Shown one piece after another: positions 30,902 through 64,000 of a stretch of 64,000 nucleotides of DNA. Under the pieces are notes generated by a model. The model ran no database searches, was not told the DNA's origin, and saw only the letters and a list, made by a program, of their open reading frames with translations. The stretch is from positions 53,460 to 117,459 of IMG/VR virus record IMGVR_UViG_3300050119_000104; one strand, given 5' to 3'. A program made the position numbers and the translations under genes. Positions within the stretch are counted from its first letter, which is position 1, and each line of letters opens with the position of its first letter. Source of the stretch: a virus.

Positions 30902-31468
30902 ATGAGCATATTCAGCCTGCCTGCGCCGTCTGCACGCCAGAAAACCGGATGGGCCGCAGCGGCGATCCTCACTGTCACCATGTGTGCCAGCTTCGAAGGC
31001 TACGCCAAGCACCCATATGTGGATTACGTCGGACGCGGCCACCCAATAACGTGGTGCTTCGGTGAAACGAAAACCGATGGCCCTATCCCGAAAATGACTG
31101 CCACGTTTACCAGAGAACAATGCGACGAGCTTCTCAAAAAGAGCTTGGTCAAGTACAACATCGAAATCAACAAATATATTCACGTCGTAATGGGTGCGCA
31201 GACCGAAGCAGCCATGACAGACGCTGCTTATAATCTCGGGTCTGGCATATTCAAGCGTGGTTCAATGACGCGTTACCTGAATGCTGGCGGTGACTTCAAT
31301 GACGTTGTTGGGGCATCTCAATCAGTGGCGTACCGGCGGTATCATCCGCTCGCATGCCACGCGCTGCGCGCCTACAACCACGGCACTGTCCACGGGCGCT
31401 CTACAGTATTGCCTGGACTGACGCGCCGCCGCGCGGCCGAAGAAGCCCTCTGTAACCAGGACAATTGA
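30902..31468 (+). CDS. Endolysin, GH24 lysozyme with probable SAR N-terminus
   Basis: FEG(E)...YVD(D)...T.CFGET catalytic triad; DAAYNLG and GL.RRR..E motifs. Confidence 0.9.
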   Translation: MSIFSLPAPSARQKTGWAAAAILTVTMCASFEGYAKHPYVDYVGRGHPITWCFGETKTDGPIPKMTATFTREQCDELLKKSLVKYNIEINKYIHVVMGAQTEAAMTDAAYNLGSGIFKRGSMTRYLNAGGDFNDVVGASQSVAYRRYHPLACHALRAYNHGTVHGRSTVLPGLTRRRAAEEALCNQDN

Positions 31469-31511: not shown

Positions 31512-32729
31512 CTATGCCGCCACTTTGAAGTGTGTTTCATTTTCTTCCTGCTTCACAGAGCGGCGTTTCACGCGGGGCTTTCGCACCGCGCCAGAGCGCT
31601 GTTCTCCACAGGCTGTAACCGCAAAGCTCGCGGCCATCTTCTCAAGATTTCGTGCGGCATTCAGGTCGCGATCATGCGACGCGCCGCAGTCTTCGCAGGT
31701 CCAGGAGCGGACATCTAGGGGCATCGAGTCGTGTATCACGCCGCATTCGGAACAAGTCTTGCTCGACGGATAGAACCGATCAGCGGTAACGATCGTCGCA
31801 CCGTACCATTTCGCCTTGTATTCAAGCATTCGTCGGAACTCACCAAATCCGGCATCGGATATTGAACGCGCCAGATGGCCATTCCGGACCATGCCTTTGA
31901 CATGCAGGTCCTCGATGCCGATCCAGTCGAACTCGTGAACGAGGCGATGTGTCAGCTTGTGGTGGGCGTCGCACCGGACATTGACAATGCGAACGTGTAC
32001 CTTCGCCAGACGCGCCTTGGCTTTCCGCCAATTGACGCTGTGCCGGACCTTCCGGGCGAGCGCCTTGTTGGCGCGCCGGAGCCTCACCAGCGCGTTCTTA
32101 TGGGCCTTGGGGCCGGCGACCATCTCACCAGTCGAGAGTGCCGCCAGCGTCGTCACGCCGAGATCAATGCCGACTACGCGAGGAATTACAGGTCGCTCGA
32201 TCGGCTGGATATCAGTGTCGACCAGGACTGACACGAACCAGCGCCCGGCCGACTTGCTGATCGTTGCGCGCTTGAGTACGCCATCGAAGCGTACAGCCTC
32301 TCGCATCTTGATCCAGCCGATCACCGGCAGCTTGATACGCTTGCCTTCGGCGCGGAATGTCCCGGCTTCATTAGCGGCGCAGAACGAGGGTGTGGCCTTC
32401 GCTCTGCTTTTGAATCTGGGATAGCGGCCGTTGTGAGTGTTCGATTTGAAGTTGCGGAAGGCGATGCCAAGATCAATAATAGCCTCCTGCACGACACACT
32501 TGCCAACTTCACAGGCCCAAGGGAATTTTTCGCGTTTGGTGGCGTTGAACTGCTTCCGCAAACTGATTTCGGAGGGGAACGGCGTGCCGAAGAAGTACCA
32601 GTTTTGAGCCTGCTCTTTCCACGCACCCAGCGCCCAATTGTACGCGAAGCGCGCAGTCCCAGCGGCACGGGCAAGATATAGCTCTTGCTCCGCATTAGGG
32701 TTCAGCGCGACGCGGTGGGCAACTAGCAC
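31512..32729 (-). CDS. tnpB: TnpB RNA-guided nuclease, IS607-type, canonical RuvC D-E-D
   Basis: GIDLG, IGIEDL, SSKTCSECG..C..CG..HDRDLNAARNL motifs. Confidence 0.95.
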   Translation of the reverse strand: MLVAHRVALNPNAEQELYLARAAGTARFAYNWALGAWKEQAQNWYFFGTPFPSEISLRKQFNATKREKFPWACEVGKCVVQEAIIDLGIAFRNFKSNTHNGRYPRFKSRAKATPSFCAANEAGTFRAEGKRIKLPVIGWIKMREAVRFDGVLKRATISKSAGRWFVSVLVDTDIQPIERPVIPRVVGIDLGVTTLAALSTGEMVAGPKAHKNALVRLRRANKALARKVRHSVNWRKAKARLAKVHVRIVNVRCDAHHKLTHRLVHEFDWIGIEDLHVKGMVRNGHLARSISDAGFGEFRRMLEYKAKWYGATIVTADRFYPSSKTCSECGVIHDSMPLDVRSWTCEDCGASHDRDLNAARNLEKMAASFAVTACGEQRSGAVRKPRVKRRSVKQEENETHFKVAA

Positions 32730-39215: not shown

Positions 39216-39812
39216 TTATTCGACCGGCGGCTGCTTCCGCTTGCGAGGCCATCCTGGTTCAAAGACAAACTTGTCGGAGACGGGCTTGTTTTCCCGCTTC
39301 GCCGCTTCGCCGACCGCAGTGTAGGGTGGGACGGCATTCGGCATGCGCGCGGTGATCTCTTTGATTTTCTCGTTCATGTCCTCCTGCCATCCGCTCGGTA
39401 GCGGCGGCGGTCGGTCATCCACGAAATTTTTCATGAACATCGCGTCGCGGAGTACCACGAGAGAAGCGAGAGCTTTACCGATGTGGCTGATACCTGAAGC
39501 TGGGTCGATATCCTCGCCCTCGAACCACGCGGTCAGATGGCGCATGGTCGCGTCATAATAGACGCTCGCGCGCACGCCAATGACTCGATAGTTATGCCGT
39601 CCATATTTGCGGGCACCTTCAAACATGCCAACTCCGATCTCGGCAATGACGGCGGATGATACCGTCGAGAACGGCACTTTGAGAATGCCGAGCACGTCTT
39701 TCGGATTGGAAGGTTTCGCAGTTGGATTGTTGGCAACGATTTCCGTATTGAGTACGTCATCGGGATTCGTGCTTATCCGGTTGACACCCACAACCTCTTT
39801 ATCTTGGGTCAT
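39216..39812 (-). CDS. dATP/dGTP diphosphohydrolase-domain (DUF5664-like) protein, N-terminus replaced by the TIR element
   Basis: NPKD..G..K.P, GARKYG..N.R, RHL..W..GEDID..SG..H motifs; the first 15 codons lie inside the element. Confidence 0.75.
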   Translation of the reverse strand: MTQDKEVVGVNRISTNPDDVLNTEIVANNPTAKPSNPKDVLGILKVPFSTVSSAVIAEIGVGMFEGARKYGRHNYRVIGVRASVYYDATMRHLTAWFEGEDIDPASGISHIGKALASLVVLRDAMFMKNFVDDRPPPLPSGWQEDMNEKIKEITARMPNAVPPYTAVGEAAKRENKPVSDKFVFEPGWPRKRKQPPVE

Positions 39813-40903
39813 GCGGCCCTCCGGCTTTCGTCTCCACGACGCTGAGCACTCAGCGCGAGAATGTTCCGTGCGGCATTTGTGTCACGGTCATGGACCGCTC
39901 CGCATCCGCCGCACATCCATTCCCTTATTCCAAGCTCTGCGATACCTTTAGGGCCACAACGCGCACCGCACGTTGAACAGAGTTGGGAAGTCCATCGCTC
40001 ATCGGCCTCAATGTACGTCGCCCCGTGCCTGCTGGCCTTGTAGCGGAGCGCCGACCGGAACGAGGACCAAGAGGCGTCGAGCACGGATTTAGCCATCCGT
40101 GTTCGGGCCATCTGCGCCGCGTTCACATTGCCGACGACGATCAGGCGATTGTCCGCAGCGATGCGGGCCGTCGCCTTATGGATGTGATCTTTCCGGGCAT
40201 TCGCGATCTTGGCATGAATAGCCTTGGTGCGCTTGCGGTTACCGGCGCGCTGCGCCGTGGCAAGTGCCCGTTCGTATTGGCGGTAGTGGCGGAGCGCGGG
40301 GACCGAAGTGCCATCGCTGCACGCCGCAAGGGTTTTCAGCCCCAAATCAATGCCGATTTCGCCGTTGCCTATAGGCAAATCGGCAACATCGACGTGGAAG
40401 CACACGTACCAGCGTCCGCGTGCATCCTCGACGAACGCTCCACCTTTTGCGGTTGGCGGTAATGGCCGTCGCGCTTGCCAGAAATGGTAGACCTTGCCGA
40501 GATAGGTGATCGTGTTGGCTGATACCTGACGGCTCTGACCCTGAAACGGTATCCAGCCCAAAGCGCGCGATCCGCGCCAGCGCAATGAGCGCTTTGCCTT
40601 GTCGCGACTCCGCGCATACTGCTCGCACACCGAGCCGACCGTCTGCGCATGAATGCCCAAGTCCTTCGACGTGCCTTTGGTCATCCGTTGTAGGTCGAAA
40701 TGCGACGGCCATTTGCGCTTCGGCGACCCATCGCGGTAGCGCGCCTCGATGTCATGCTGTACCTCGTTGCAGTAATTCCAGACGACGTTGCACGCTTTCG
40801 CATGCCGCCGAAGGGTCTTTTTGGCGGAGCGGTCCTTGATGCGATAGCGGTAAGTCAAGATCATCTGGGTTTAGTACCTGTGGGTGTCAACCGGATAAGC
40901 ATG
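39768..40903 (-). mobile_element. 1136-bp TIR-bounded tnpB element, copy 1 (IS1595/ISSod11-like ends, no transposase)
   Basis: 25-bp TIR CRTGCTTATCCGGTTGACACCCACA at both ends; identical to the copy at 62885. Confidence 0.9.
39809..40864 (-). CDS. tnpB: TnpB with rearranged RuvC-II (G in place of E; alternative E downstream)
   Basis: IGIDLG; LIVVGNV; ADERWTSQLCSTCG; CGGCG.VHDRDTNAARNI. Confidence 0.92.
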   Translation of the reverse strand: MILTYRYRIKDRSAKKTLRRHAKACNVVWNYCNEVQHDIEARYRDGSPKRKWPSHFDLQRMTKGTSKDLGIHAQTVGSVCEQYARSRDKAKRSLRWRGSRALGWIPFQGQSRQVSANTITYLGKVYHFWQARRPLPPTAKGGAFVEDARGRWYVCFHVDVADLPIGNGEIGIDLGLKTLAACSDGTSVPALRHYRQYERALATAQRAGNRKRTKAIHAKIANARKDHIHKATARIAADNRLIVVGNVNAAQMARTRMAKSVLDASWSSFRSALRYKASRHGATYIEADERWTSQLCSTCGARCGPKGIAELGIREWMCGGCGAVHDRDTNAARNILALSAQRRGDESRRAA

Positions 40904-40965
40904 AACTCAATGAGCTTTTTGATCGGCTTGCGCCGGTGAAGCTCGCTAAGATTAGTCTTTGTCAT
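40904..40965 (-). pseudogene. Orphan N-terminal fragment interrupted by the tnpB element
   Basis: GGGAGG RBS + MTKTNLSELHRRKPIKKLIEF running into the TIR. Confidence 0.5.
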
Positions 40966-42278: not shown

Positions 42279-42354
42279 GGGTTTTTCTCCGCCCTCTACA
42301 TGGCACGGCTCGGGGGAGCCAGCCAGCGGAACCTTGGAAGGAGGTTAAGAGACC

Positions 42355-42595
42355 CATGCTTATCCGGTTGACGCCCAATGCTTGACAGCTACCTGGAATT
42401 TTGCTTTTCTCCGTTCCGACAATCGCCTCCGATTGATTGGGGGTATCTAAAGACCATGTTTCCGTCGTCTGTTCGCGCCGAAAGGTAGAACGGCGATGAA
42501 TAAGGTCCATTTCGGTGGATCGCGCAGAGTGCTCTGCGTCCTGTAGAGGAGAGCCGGGTTCGTGTCGCCCATTGGGCGTCAACCGGATAAGCACG
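42355..42595 (+). mobile_element. 241-bp MITE A (putative omegaRNA cassette), 8-bp TSD AAGAGACC
   Basis: 26-bp TIR; TSD at 42347-42354 and 42596-42603; structured non-coding interior. Confidence 0.9.
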
Positions 42596-43157
42596 AAGAG
42601 ACCGTAAAGGGCTCGCTAGGGCTCAGTTTTCCGCTCCGGTGGGGCATCCATAGCCCAGGAGTGGAAAAACGCGCCAGCGGGCTTCCTCGTGGCTTTGTAG
42701 AGGGTTCTATTCTCCGCATCGGATCGCCATTCCCCCATTGAAGGCATCTTATCGCCCTTAAAGGTGCCCGAGCGGGGCACACGAGGGGGGCATATTCTTT
42801 GCAGCGGAGGTTGCTGAAGCTGTTTTTATGGGAAGGGCGCTAGGGCCGTTACCCTTTGGCGGTATTGCCGCGCAGAATAAGCAGGCGCTGCCATTGCGAT
42901 TCGATCAGGGCGTCGAATTCGACGAGGTTCCCGCATGTCGAGCGCACTAGCCATGCTTCACGCTCCTGCACGTTCGGCCGCTTCCATCCGACGGCTGAAC
43001 GCTTGCGCCTCGAATGCGCGAGCATGCGCCGAGTCATCAATGGGGTGGAATAGCCGCGTGTAGAAGTGCCGACCGTCCGTGGTCGTTATGAACACCTCTG
43101 AGAAGGGGCGATCTTCGCCCCGCCGCTCGATCCGCACCTCCGCGACTTCGGGTGCGC

Positions 43158-48558: not shown

Positions 48559-48799
48559 CGTGCTTATCCGGTTGACGCCCAATGGGCGACACGAACCCGG
48601 CTCTCCTCTACAGGACGCAGAGCACTCTGCGCGATCCACCGAAATGGACCTTATTCATCGCCGTTCTACCTTTCGGCGCGAACAGACGACGGAAACATGG
48701 TCTTTAGATACCCCCAATCAATCGGAGGCGATTGTCGGAATGGAGAAAAGCAAAATTCCAGGTGGCTGTCAAGCATTGGGCATCAACCGGATAAGCATG
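48559..48799 (-). mobile_element. 241-bp MITE B (putative omegaRNA cassette), 8-bp TSD TTATGTTT
   Basis: Inverted near-identical copy of MITE A (about 3 substitutions); TSD at 48551-48558 and 48800-48807. Confidence 0.9.
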
Positions 48800-57615: not shown

Positions 57616-57980
57616 AAACTCGATGCTTTCCTTAGCCTTTTCTCGTCCTCGGCTTTTCGCGCTGAATTAATGAGATACACCTCATTTAGCAAATCCAGCA
57701 TGAATTCATCAGCGTGGGCACCACTCCGATCTGTTCCCGGACCAACCGGCCATCCTGGTCCACAGTGGCGATCCCACCACGACTCGCGGTGCCCCTCGTA
57801 CCAGCGCCGCAAATATATGGCGGCCTGATCAGCGGCAGCGGTCGGCTCGTCACCAAAAAACATCTCGACCCGGTAAAACTTGTTACGACGCATGCGGTTA
57901 CGTGACCAAATAGACGAGACTATCAGTACCGGCACGACGAAAAAGCATATGGTGAGGATGACTTGTGTGAAGTGGCTCAT
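57612..57980 (-). CDS. Membrane-anchored hypothetical protein
   Basis: N-terminal TM; the ATG lies 3 nt beyond the TIR of MITE C. Confidence 0.5.
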   Translation of the reverse strand: MSHFTQVILTICFFVVPVLIVSSIWSRNRMRRNKFYRVEMFFGDEPTAAADQAAIYLRRWYEGHRESWWDRHCGPGWPVGPGTDRSGAHADEFMLDLLNEVYLINSARKAEDEKRLRKASSL

Positions 57981-57982
57981 TG

Positions 57983-58067
57983 CGTGCTTATCCGGCTGAC
58001 GCCCAATGGACGACACGAACGGAAGAAAAGCAAAATTTCAGGTAGCTGTCAAGGTAGGTGTCAACCG
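57983..58067 (-). mobile_element. Decayed MITE C (internal deletion, one end truncated)
   Basis: CGTGCTTATCCGGCTGACGCCCAATG joined to GAAAAGCAAAATTTCAGGTAGCTGTCAAG, both from the MITE sequence. Confidence 0.8.
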
Positions 58068-62410: not shown

Positions 62411-62433
62411 GTTGCTATCTCCTGTCCGAGAAC

Positions 62434-62508
62434 CGCGCAGAGTGCTCTGCGTCCTGTAAAGGAGAGCCGGGTTCGTGTCGCCCATTGGGCGTCAACCGGA
62501 TAAGCACG
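62434..62508 (+). mobile_element. Half MITE D (omegaRNA core hairpins + right TIR)
   Basis: CGCGCAGAGTGCTCTGCGTCCTGTAAAGGAGAGCCGG...GTCAACCGGATAAGCACG. Confidence 0.85.
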
Positions 62509-62884: not shown

Positions 62885-64000
62885 CGTGCTTATCCGGTTG
62901 ACACCCACAACCTCTTTATCTTGGGTCATGCGGCCCTCCGGCTTTCGTCTCCACGACGCTGAGCACTCAGCGCGAGAATGTTCCGTGCGGCATTTGTGTC
63001 ACGGTCATGGACCGCTCCGCATCCGCCGCACATCCATTCCCTTATTCCAAGCTCTGCGATACCTTTAGGGCCACAACGCGCACCGCACGTTGAACAGAGT
63101 TGGGAAGTCCATCGCTCATCGGCCTCAATGTACGTCGCCCCGTGCCTGCTGGCCTTGTAGCGGAGCGCCGACCGGAACGAGGACCAAGAGGCGTCGAGCA
63201 CGGATTTAGCCATCCGTGTTCGGGCCATCTGCGCCGCGTTCACATTGCCGACGACGATCAGGCGATTGTCCGCAGCGATGCGGGCCGTCGCCTTATGGAT
63301 GTGATCTTTCCGGGCATTCGCGATCTTGGCATGAATAGCCTTGGTGCGCTTGCGGTTACCGGCGCGCTGCGCCGTGGCAAGTGCCCGTTCGTATTGGCGG
63401 TAGTGGCGGAGCGCGGGGACCGAAGTGCCATCGCTGCACGCCGCAAGGGTTTTCAGCCCCAAATCAATGCCGATTTCGCCGTTGCCTATAGGCAAATCGG
63501 CAACATCGACGTGGAAGCACACGTACCAGCGTCCGCGTGCATCCTCGACGAACGCTCCACCTTTTGCGGTTGGCGGTAATGGCCGTCGCGCTTGCCAGAA
63601 ATGGTAGACCTTGCCGAGATAGGTGATCGTGTTGGCTGATACCTGACGGCTCTGACCCTGAAACGGTATCCAGCCCAAAGCGCGCGATCCGCGCCAGCGC
63701 AATGAGCGCTTTGCCTTGTCGCGACTCCGCGCATACTGCTCGCACACCGAGCCGACCGTCTGCGCATGAATGCCCAAGTCCTTCGACGTGCCTTTGGTCA
63801 TCCGTTGTAGGTCGAAATGCGACGGCCATTTGCGCTTCGGCGACCCATCGCGGTAGCGCGCCTCGATGTCATGCTGTACCTCGTTGCAGTAATTCCAGAC
63901 GACGTTGCACGCTTTCGCATGCCGCCGAAGGGTCTTTTTGGCGGAGCGGTCCTTGATGCGATAGCGGTAAGTCAAGATCATCTGGGTTTAGTACCTGTGG
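62885..64000 (-). mobile_element. TIR-bounded tnpB element, copy 2 (runs off the window edge)
   Basis: Identical to 39768-40883 at an offset of 23117 bp. Confidence 0.9.
62926..63981 (-). CDS. tnpB: TnpB with rearranged RuvC-II, identical to copy 1
   Basis: Translation identical to 39809-40864. Confidence 0.92.
   Translation of the reverse strand: MILTYRYRIKDRSAKKTLRRHAKACNVVWNYCNEVQHDIEARYRDGSPKRKWPSHFDLQRMTKGTSKDLGIHAQTVGSVCEQYARSRDKAKRSLRWRGSRALGWIPFQGQSRQVSANTITYLGKVYHFWQARRPLPPTAKGGAFVEDARGRWYVCFHVDVADLPIGNGEIGIDLGLKTLAACSDGTSVPALRHYRQYERALATAQRAGNRKRTKAIHAKIANARKDHIHKATARIAADNRLIVVGNVNAAQMARTRMAKSVLDASWSSFRSALRYKASRHGATYIEADERWTSQLCSTCGARCGPKGIAELGIREWMCGGCGAVHDRDTNAARNILALSAQRRGDESRRAA

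What the first reader, a model, noticed from the sequence alone, without database searches (positions are those of the whole stretch)
39768..40903. TnpB carried between IS1595/ISSod11-type terminal inverted repeats instead of IS200/605 or IS607 ends
Seen: two identical 1136-bp elements contain only tnpB between 25-bp TIRs (CRTGCTTATCCGGTTGACACCCACA), and sister elements with these ends have 8-bp TSDs. Established (recalled, not looked up): IS1595-family elements make 8-bp TSDs, the ISSod11 group has ends nnnGCnTATC, and TnpB normally travels with Y1 or serine recombinases. Inference: a DDE cut-and-paste family has captured an RNA-guided nuclease, a prokaryotic parallel to the Fanzor-TIR transposon association, mobilised in trans because no transposase is in this window.
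Basis: partly seen in the sequence, partly recalled or inferred. Interest (0 to 1): 0.9.

Follow-up and report, generated by a model that had tools for sequence, protein, structure and literature searches.

The report
TnpB cassette inside IS1595 transposon ends
A peat-soil phage carries small mobile cassettes whose only gene is the RNA-guided nuclease TnpB, sitting between the inverted ends of a cut-and-paste IS1595 transposon whose transposase lies elsewhere in the same phage; the principle was published in 2023, but here the guide RNA's last structural bases are the transposon end itself.

Summary
Window 39768-40903 is a 1136-bp element holding only tnpB between 25-nt inverted repeats. A second copy (62885 to the contig end) is identical over its 1116 visible bases. 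Two 241-bp sister elements have exact 8-bp target duplications.

The same 117-kb phage genome, outside the window, holds a 2250-bp IS1595 element with a Zn-ribbon and DDE transposase, 23/25-identical ends and an 8-bp duplication.

All 19 TnpBs linked to these ends form one clade. Its sister clade is linked to Y1 TnpA and includes a canonical IS605 in this same phage.

The omegaRNA scaffold shows covariation. Its last stem and a pseudoknot use the terminal 13 nt of the repeat, so the guide should start in the flanking DNA. The small sister elements are tnpB-deleted copies that keep this RNA.

Two cautions:
- The tnpB copies mostly lack target duplications (2 of 8 have one; A1 has none).
- No TAM was found.

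TnpB in DDE transposons with inverted ends, and solo TnpBs moved in trans, were published in 2023 (PMC10691335). IS1595 is not named there. This scan has noted TnpB in IS1595 ends on other DNA before. Verdict: a new variant of a known kind.

The parts
39768..40903 (-). TnpB cassette A1: a non-autonomous IS1595-type element, 1136 bp
   Evidence: Bounded by 25-nt inverted repeats. Its only gene is tnpB. No target duplication.
40879..40903 (-). Inverted repeat on the 5' side of tnpB. Read inward: CATGCTTATCCGGTTGACACCCACA.
   Evidence: 23/25 identical to one end of the autonomous IS1595 in the same genome.
39809..40864 (-). tnpB, 351 aa, with a rearranged RuvC-II site
   Evidence: Pfam and NCBIfam hits. 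D173, G245 at the canonical Glu position, E289, D328 and a C4 zinc finger are each unchanged in every row that has a residue there, 83 to 86 of the 86 relatives.
39768..39792 (-). Inverted repeat on the 3' side of tnpB (tip CGTG). It also encodes the 3' arm of omegaRNA stem 3 (CCGG) and the pseudoknot strand AGCAC.
   Evidence: covariation; fold.
39768..39860 (-). Predicted 3' module of the omegaRNA scaffold: hairpin 1 with a GUGC loop, hairpin 2, stem 3, pseudoknot. The 5' end is undefined and overlaps the end of tnpB.
   Evidence: 18 pairs, 98.5% of cells paired, 10 pairs with changes on both sides, 0 of 500 shuffles as high.
39748..39767 (-). Predicted guide segment: the flank just beyond the repeat tip (AATCCCGATGACGTACTCAA on the minus strand)
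   Evidence: Inference from the scaffold ending one base before the tip and from the same layout in canonical relatives. Not shown by RNA data.
62885..64000 (-). TnpB cassette A2, cut by the contig end
   Evidence: 0 differences from A1 over 1116 nt.
42355..42595 (+). 241-bp tnpB-deleted derivative (MITE) keeping the omegaRNA module. Duplication AAGAGACC at 42347-42354 and 42596-42603.
48559..48799 (-). 241-bp MITE in the opposite orientation. Duplication TTATGTTT.
   Evidence: (99% complementary to the copy at 42355).
57983..58053 (-). Decayed, internally deleted MITE
62425..62508 (+). Half MITE: the omegaRNA-side 84 nt only
   Evidence: (D6, 94%).

Best explanation
The element is a non-autonomous member of an IS1595-family transposon lineage. 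Its cargo is a TnpB RNA-guided nuclease and its omegaRNA.

How it moves (inferred): the IS1595 DDE transposase encoded elsewhere in the same phage genome binds the shared 25-nt inverted repeats and moves the cassette in trans, normally making 8-bp target duplications.

Where it came from: the TnpB lineage branched from an ordinary IS200/IS605 lineage once. It has since kept its omegaRNA fused to the transposon end. The terminal 13 nt of the repeat supply the 3' arm of the last stem (CCGG) and a pseudoknot strand (AGCAC) that pairs with the GUGCU loop of hairpin 1. The scaffold therefore ends one base before the element's tip, and every new insertion gives the RNA a new guide read from the flanking DNA. 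This is the IS200/IS605 logic rebuilt on a DDE end.

Derivatives: internal deletion of tnpB produced about 11 omegaRNA-only 235-256-bp elements in this genome.

Shown here: the ends, the cognate transposase, the duplications of relatives, the single clade, and the RNA covariation.

Inferred: trans mobilisation of this copy, nuclease activity, the guide position, and a homing or retention role for TnpB.
For: Ends and gene content:
- Repeats and tnpB-only content.
- A1 and A2 are identical at two loci.
- A 96% identical cassette sits at an unrelated locus of another virus contig.

Cognate transposase:
- An IS1595 element with the same tip and an 8-bp duplication is in the same genome.
- 29 relatives of that transposase occur in other viral contigs, almost all with the same tips and 8-bp duplications.
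- About 40 family elements have perfect 8-bp duplications, including full tnpB cassette L106. L127 has one displaced by 6 nt.
- Autonomous relatives without tnpB have the end CATGCTTATCCGGTTGACACCCAA.

Phylogeny:
- All 19 repeat-linked TnpBs fall on one side of a branch with SH-aLRT 98.
- They are sister to a Y1-linked clade that contains tnpB-C of this phage.

omegaRNA:
- Hairpins 1 and 2 covary strongly.
- The pseudoknot between the hairpin-1 loop and the repeat tip is paired in 100% of cells, with double changes in L032, L114 and L108.
- RNAfold closes CCGG with CCGG and leaves AUAAGCACG free in A1 and L106.
- Canonical relatives have the same plan: stem 3, a 9-10 nt tail, loop-tail complementarity, then the element end.
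- The MITEs keep exactly this module.
Against: A1 has no target duplication. Only 2 of 8 full tnpB cassettes with both ends visible have one, against most IS1595 copies. So no copy in this window carries the DDE footprint.

About nine members of the clade show only the 3' repeat and no 5' partner within 600-1500 nt.

No TAM-like motif was found. The T two bases before the duplication is equally common beside elements that have no omegaRNA (45 of 68 flanks).

The canonical RuvC-II glutamate is a glycine, so nuclease activity rests on a published structural inference.

The tree is a quick search with midpoint rooting.
Confidence: 0.78

Rival explanations
1. The core is an ordinary IS200/IS605-type solo tnpB (IS1341-like). 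Its own ends lie at TTGAC| and GTCAA|, and it sits inside a palindromic target. The outer 13 nt on each side would then be target DNA, and the guide would read CCGGATAAGCACG.
For: Relatives at 43% identity (L033) end ...GGATGTCAA| and have TTGAC upstream. The cassette has GTCAA 13 nt inside its tip. A Y1 TnpA is present in the same phage.
Against: The repeat identity continues 7 to about 20 nt inside TTGAC. IS1595 elements without tnpB carry the same TTGACACCCA. Duplications are flush with the CRTG tips. The Y1-linked sister clade inserts next to TCATC and has a left-end hairpin; both are absent here. The AGCAC of the tip covaries with the hairpin-1 loop, so it is scaffold, not guide.
Confidence: 0.04
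2. The full-length tnpB cassettes spread in phage populations mainly by recombination, not by the DDE transposase. The route would be TnpB-triggered homing into cut empty alleles, or plain homologous exchange between co-infecting phages. The repeats would then be inherited baggage, used only rarely.
For: 6 of 8 full cassettes lack target duplications although their repeats are perfect. The A1 junctions are fixed across several peat and permafrost samples. The clade is almost absent from 185,579 representative bacterial genomes and is found in viral and metagenome contigs.
Against: Homing copies the duplication along with the element, so it does not explain missing duplications. L106 and L127 do have duplications. 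The deletion derivatives transpose with duplications. No flank homology exists between A1, A2 and L031.
Confidence: 0.12
3. The missing duplications are secondary. Multi-copy 1.1-kb cassettes recombine with each other, causing deletions or inversions between copies, or are mis-joined by the assembler. Either way a hybrid copy is left with flanks from two different insertions. This is compatible with the best explanation and explains its main anomaly.
For: The fraction with a duplication falls with copy number and length. My tally gives about 17 of 19 distinct single-copy IS1595 elements; searches give 5 of 9 MITEs and 2 of 8 tnpB cassettes. The contig breaks inside copy A2, which shows the assembler met this repeat.
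Against: Swapping the flanks of A1 and A2 does not restore a duplication. Three other samples give the same A1 junctions, which argues against a one-off assembly error.
Confidence: 0.5

Closest known systems
DDE-transposase-associated TnpB branches (DDE-1 to DDE-6), and solo TnpBs between the same ends; Altae-Tran et al. 2023, PNAS, PMC10691335
   Same: TnpB sits inside symmetrical inverted terminal repeats of a DDE transposon. The tnpB 3' end lies within 250 bp of the transposon end. Solo TnpBs share ends with transposase-bearing elements and are presumed to be moved in trans.
   Different: The main text names only IS630. A 2026 review (PMC13565253) lists ISL2, IS630 and IS1031 as DDE partners. 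IS1595 appears in neither. Whether this clade equals one of DDE-1 to DDE-5 could not be checked, because the supplement is not held. In the passages I read I saw neither the repeat-tip pseudoknot nor the swarm of omegaRNA-only derivatives described.
IS200/IS605 elements with TnpB and omegaRNA (ISDra2; IS1341-type solo tnpB), and their small palindrome-associated derivatives
   Same: The protein family is the same. The omegaRNA overlaps the tnpB 3' end, the scaffold ends at the element's end, and the guide is read from the flank. The hairpin, stem-3 and pseudoknot plan is shared with the canonical IS605 in this same phage. Small tnpB-less derivatives keep the ends.
   Different: The ends here are 25-nt inverted repeats, not asymmetric subterminal hairpins. 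Relatives make 8-bp duplications. There is no conserved target motif such as the TCATC of the sister clade. The mobilising enzyme is a DDE transposase, not a Y1 HUH enzyme.
IS1595 family insertion sequences (ISSod11-like ends); family features as summarised in PMC8101967
   Same: 8-bp duplications and a transposase with an N-terminal Zn ribbon plus a DDE_Tnp_IS1595 domain. The ends start CATGCTTATC, which fits the nnnGCnTATC recalled for the ISSod11 group.
   Different: The cassette carries no transposase, and its cargo is an RNA-guided nuclease. One repeat tip is fixed as CACG, which serves the RNA pseudoknot.
Fanzor nucleases inside eukaryotic inverted-repeat DNA transposons (Bao and Jurka 2013, PMC3627910)
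   Same: A TnpB-family nuclease rides in cut-and-paste DDE transposons that make target duplications.
   Different: This one is prokaryotic and phage-borne, is a compact 351-aa TnpB, and has a different transposon superfamily as partner.

Membership tests
IS1595 family (non-autonomous derivative) | Terminal inverted repeats shared with an element that encodes a DDE_Tnp_IS1595 transposase | tested here: met
   The cassette end is 23/25 identical to one end of the IS1595 element at genome 8172-10421. The first 15 nt are shared by 29 IS1595 relatives.
IS1595 family (non-autonomous derivative) | 8-bp target site duplication flanking this copy | tested here: not met
   A1 has TCGGGATT on one side and AACTCAAT on the other, and no offset restores a repeat. 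A2's second flank lies beyond the contig end.
IS1595 family (non-autonomous derivative) | 8-bp target site duplication in elements with the same ends | tested here: met
   About 40 elements have one, including two MITEs in the window and full tnpB cassette L106. L127's is displaced by 6 nt.
IS1595 family (non-autonomous derivative) | Transposase with a Zn ribbon and a DDE_Tnp_IS1595 domain available in cis or in trans | tested here: met
   None in the element or the window. One intact 347-aa copy lies in the same genome, outside the window.
ISSod11 subgroup of IS1595 | Subgroup-specific ends and transposase clade as defined by ISfinder | not testable with these tools
   CATGCTTATC fits the consensus nnnGCnTATC, which I recall from memory. 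No ISfinder reference set was available.
TnpB (OMEGA) RNA-guided nucleases | TnpB domain architecture | tested here: met
   Pfam OrfB_IS605 and Cas12f1-like_TNB. NCBIfam guided_TnpB at 213 bits against a cutoff of 100. Matches ISDra2 TnpB structures at 1e-21.
TnpB (OMEGA) RNA-guided nucleases | RuvC catalytic D-E-D triad | tested here: inconclusive
   D173 and D328 are present. The canonical Glu position is G245 in all 86 relatives, and E289 is invariant. This matches the published Glu-to-Gly rearrangement with an alternative Glu, which is inferred to be active.
TnpB (OMEGA) RNA-guided nucleases | Structured omegaRNA at or after the 3' end of tnpB | tested here: met
   18 pairs, 98.5% of cells paired, 10 pairs with compensatory changes, 0 of 500 shuffles as high. 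No Rfam family matches.
TnpB (OMEGA) RNA-guided nucleases | A transposon-adjacent motif (TAM) next to the guide's target | tested here: inconclusive
   Seven duplication-bearing omegaRNA insertions all have T at -2. So do 45 of 68 flanks of elements without omegaRNA, so this is a transposase preference, not a TAM.
IS200/IS605 (IS1341-type solo tnpB) | Asymmetric ends with subterminal hairpins and no inverted repeats, inserted 3' of a fixed 4-5 nt target | tested here: not met
   25-nt inverted repeats are present. Only 23 nt separate TTGAC from the start codon, with no hairpin. The sister clade's TCATC target is absent from the 5' flanks of the cassettes.
DDE-associated TnpB branches (Altae-Tran 2023) | Inverted terminal repeats around tnpB, a tnpB 3' end within 250 bp of the end, and solo copies sharing ends with transposase-bearing copies | tested here: met
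   The stop codon is 41 nt from the tip. The ends are shared with the IS1595 element. Which numbered branch it belongs to could not be tested.

The most novel reading that the evidence does not exclude
The phage may run a dispersed multi-guide system. One or two TnpB genes would be programmed in trans by about a dozen omegaRNA-only MITEs, each reading its guide from its own flank. TnpB would then cut MITE-free alleles of co-infecting relatives at many loci at once. Repair from the MITE-bearing genome would spread the MITEs and linked phage markers by homing, a form of marker exclusion between phages. The IS1595 transposase would be needed only to seed new sites. The dual-use repeat tip, serving both as transposase site and as RNA pseudoknot strand, would be the adaptation that made this possible.
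Probability: 0.2. Interest if true: 0.75.

Novelty: new variant of a known kind. Interest (0 to 1): 0.55.

Why it matters
It shows in one genome how an RNA-guided nuclease changes carrier. This phage holds all four stages:
- a canonical IS605 with Y1 TnpA and TnpB;
- a sister TnpB lineage rebuilt onto IS1595 ends;
- the autonomous IS1595 that can serve those ends;
- a swarm of tnpB-less derivatives that keep only the guide-RNA module.

The repeat tip is constrained both as DNA (transposase site) and as RNA (stem and pseudoknot). This explains the CACG versus CATG asymmetry of the two ends. It also predicts that the guide is reprogrammed at each DDE insertion. That prediction makes the open question of what TnpB does for a cut-and-paste transposon directly testable, using a compact 351-aa nuclease and a roughly 100-nt RNA.

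It also adds IS1595 to the DDE partners named in the literature I could read (ISL2, IS630, IS1031).

Tried and rejected
- Empty site from relatives. Homologues of the flanking dGTP-diphosphohydrolase-like gene diverge exactly at the N-terminus where A1 sits. The one related contig with the cassette is only 70-79% identical and is not alignable at the flanks.
- Empty site from reads. Logan contigs of four peat, permafrost and soil runs gave no contig joining 39767 to 40904. Contigs drop rare variants, so this shows nothing either way.
- The joint '40900 to 39768 with CTTC between' is the MITE inserted into the tip of cassette B. The loose ends at 39789 and 39823 are the relic at genome 42875-42925.
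- Rfam has no family for the 3' region.
- TAM search. The T at -2 turned out to be a general target preference of the family.
- I first took GTCAA as the end of the scaffold, by likeness to ...GATGTCAA| in L033. I gave this up after the structural alignment and the pseudoknot covariation.
It is a decayed copy of the cassette's 3' end.
- Promoter scan: nothing convincing inside the element.
- Representative bacterial genomes: the best relatives are at most 54% identical, and only one (Caulobacter sp., L193) has the repeat-like 3' end. No host was identified.
- In-frame fusion of the two gene halves after removing A1. This works only with boundaries that differ from those set by the duplications, so I did not use it.
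Full report
**Setting.** The window is bases 53460-117459 of a 117,459-bp virus record, rated complete and linear. The same DNA is held by about 20 peat, permafrost and soil metagenome runs. The window encodes a phage lysozyme.

**Observation.**
- The repeat 22-mer occurs at 39771-39792 (+), 40879-40900 (-) and 62888-62909 (+), against 0 expected by chance.
- The full arms are 25-27 nt.
- The only long ORF between them, 39809-40864 (-), is a TnpB.
- The second copy starts at 62885 and runs off the contig end. It is identical to the first over 1116 nt.
- Two 241-bp elements with the same tips, at 42355-42595 and 48559-48799, have exact 8-bp duplications: AAGAGACC and TTATGTTT.
- The window holds no transposase.

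The tnpB element at 39768-40903 has no duplication itself.

**The cognate transposase exists.** The tip motif occurs 27 times in the whole genome. One pair, genome 8172-10421, bounds a 2250-bp element.
- It has a perfect 8-bp duplication, ATCGGGAT.
- It has a 347-aa ORF with Pfam DDE_Tnp_IS1595 (1e-34) and Zn_ribbon_IS1595, and NCBIfam transpos_IS1595 at 190 bits against a cutoff of 75.
- One of its ends is 23/25 identical to the cassette's.

These are the family's stated features: a Zn finger, a DDE domain and 8-bp duplications (PMC8101967).

Relatives of this transposase, 77-96% identical, sit in 29 other viral contigs. Nearly all have CATGCTTATCCGGTT tips and 8-bp duplications. Some of these autonomous elements have the very end CATGCTTATCCGGTTGACACCCAA. 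The whole 25-nt repeat of the cassette, including TTGAC, is therefore native IS1595 sequence. Across all fetched DNA, about 40 elements with these tips have perfect 8-bp duplications.

**Census in this phage**:
- one autonomous IS1595;
- three TnpB cassettes: A1, A2, and a 59%-identical cassette B at genome 15708-16846, whose repeat is about 36 nt and whose tip has been hit by a MITE;
- about 11 MITEs of 235-256 bp, plus fragments;
- a canonical IS605, with Y1 tnpA at L030:7305-7715 divergent from tnpB-C at L030:6199-7302;
- a fifth, distant tnpB at window 31512-32729.

**Origin.** I collected 86 TnpBs from viral and metagenome contigs. I labelled each by the presence of the repeat-tip motif beside tnpB or of a Y1 tnpA.
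- In a quick IQ-TREE tree, all 19 repeat-linked TnpBs lie on one side of a branch with SH-aLRT 98.
- Their sister clade holds six Y1-linked TnpBs, among them tnpB-C of this same phage.
- One change of carrier explains the labels.

The tree is a quick search with midpoint rooting. Four unlabelled rows sit inside the repeat-linked clade. About nine members of the clade show only the 3' repeat.

Among representative bacterial genomes, the best relatives are at most 54% identical. Only one, from a Caulobacter, has the repeat-like 3' end.

**The RNA.** The last roughly 95 nt before the tip align across 19 cassettes and MITEs. The plan is as follows.
- Hairpin 1 is a 6-bp stem with a GUGC loop.
- Hairpin 2 is a 4-bp stem.
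- Both covary heavily. In the first count, 34 cells changed on both sides and 0 of 500 shuffles reached the observed values.
- The conserved GAAAGCCGG follows. Its CCGG can pair with the CCGG inside the repeat (stem 3), enclosing a variable hairpin that uses the inner repeat. RNAfold predicts this closure on its own for A1 and L106 and leaves AUAAGCACG unpaired.
- The hairpin-1 loop GUGCU is complementary to AGCAC, one base before the element's tip.

I tested that pseudoknot. All five pairs are paired in all 19 sequences. There are double changes in L032 (GCGCU with AGCGC), L114 (GCGUU with AACGC) and L108 (GUGCC with GGCAC), and wobble changes elsewhere.

The canonical relatives have the same plan: stem 3, then a 9-10 nt tail complementary to the hairpin-1 loop, then the element end. 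Examples are C (AACGU with ACGUU) and L033 (GACAU with AUGUC), read.

The scaffold therefore ends at the repeat tip, and the guide should be the flank. At a fresh insertion the flank starts with the duplicated 8 bp. This also explains why the RNA-side tip is always CACG while the other tip is CATG.

The MITEs keep hairpins 1 and 2, stem 3 and the pseudoknot but have lost tnpB. They are deletion derivatives that can still encode an omegaRNA. A 706-bp intermediate with a tnpB 3' remnant and a perfect duplication exists in L101.

**The nuclease.** D173 (RuvC-I), D328 (RuvC-III) and four zinc-finger cysteines show no substitution in any row that reaches them (all 86 for D173; 83 of 86 for D328 and two of the cysteines). 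The canonical RuvC-II glutamate is a glycine in all 86 (G245), and E289 is invariant. This is the Glu-to-Gly rearrangement with an alternative glutamate that Altae-Tran et al. describe and infer to be active. I did not test activity.

**Anomaly.** Of eight full cassettes with both ends visible, only L106 has a flush 8-bp duplication. L127 has one displaced by a 6-nt repeat of the tip. By comparison, by my tally most single-copy IS1595 elements have one (about 17 of 19 distinct copies), as do 5 of 9 MITEs here. The A1 junctions recur in three other runs, and no empty site was seen.

The trend with copy number and length fits recombination between copies, which leaves hybrid flanks. This is inference. 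Homing does not explain it, since homing copies the duplication.

**No TAM.** All seven omegaRNA-bearing insertions that have duplications show T two bases before the duplication. So do 45 of 68 flanks of family elements without the RNA. It is a target preference of the transposase. The Y1-linked sister clade inserts next to TCATC, and that motif is not found beside the cassettes.

**Rival reading.** An IS605-type core nested in a palindrome is rejected on four grounds:
- the repeat extends well inside TTGAC;
- tnpB-less IS1595 elements share that inner part;
- duplications are flush with the tips;
- the tip covaries as scaffold.

**What is known.** Altae-Tran et al. 2023 (PMC10691335) report six DDE-linked TnpB branches with inverted terminal repeats. 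They also report solo TnpBs between near-identical ends, presumed to be moved in trans. The main text names IS630, and the supplement is not held. A 2026 review lists ISL2, IS630 and IS1031. Full-text searches for IS1595 together with TnpB or RNA-guided found no paper whose title or abstract concerns the pairing; I did not open those hits. This scan's own notes record TnpB in IS1595-type ends in at least 32 other genomes.

**Verdict.** The principle is known. The named partner family, the dual-use repeat tip and the omegaRNA-only swarm in a phage are the new parts.

Noticed in passing
L030:6199-7715 (genome 46199-47715, outside the window): A canonical IS605: Y1 tnpA (Pfam Y1_Tnp, 5e-41) divergent from a tnpB that is 59% identical to the cassette's. 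Related copies insert next to TCATC.
   Followed up: partly
window 31512-32729 (-): A fifth, distant tnpB: 405 aa with an HTH domain, 37% identical to TnpB-A. It lies next to a phage lysozyme gene (30902-31468). I saw no IS1595-type repeat around it.
   Followed up: no
window 39216-39812 (-): An ATG overlapping the tnpB stop (ATGA) opens a frame that reads out through the repeat. It runs in frame into a dATP/dGTP diphosphohydrolase-like gene (Pfam PF18909). The same ATGA and outward frame is present in other cassettes.
   Followed up: partly
L028:15472-15720 (genome 15472-15720): A MITE has inserted with the duplication GAAGGCTT exactly across the tip of cassette B. One family member has hit another's end.
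   Followed up: yes
L030:2875-2925 (genome 42875-42925): A roughly 50-nt relic of a cassette 3' end, between the portal gene and the next gene. It accounts for loose ends seen when reads were laid.
   Followed up: yes
window 39768 / 40903 (run X9): A contig in a permafrost run joins a right tip to a left tip with exactly 8 nt (GTTCATTC) between them. It could be two abutting elements sharing one target, or a circular junction. It cannot be told apart from contigs.
   Followed up: no
L028:9256-10421 (genome 9256-10421): The autonomous IS1595 carries about 1.1 kb of extra DNA with two ORFs (124 and 181 aa) that match no Pfam, NCBIfam or PHROG family. Relatives in other phages range from 1.5 to 2.6 kb.
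   Followed up: partly
window 40904-40915 and 57975-57982: The 8-mer GCTCATTG abuts the decayed MITE at 57983. Its complement lies 4 nt from the A1 tip. This may be a trace of an old rearrangement, or chance.
   Followed up: no
genome 13761-14029 (L028): A MITE whose two flanks are inverted complements of each other, offset by 2 nt (AAAGCGAA and CGCTTTGT), instead of a direct duplication.
   Followed up: no
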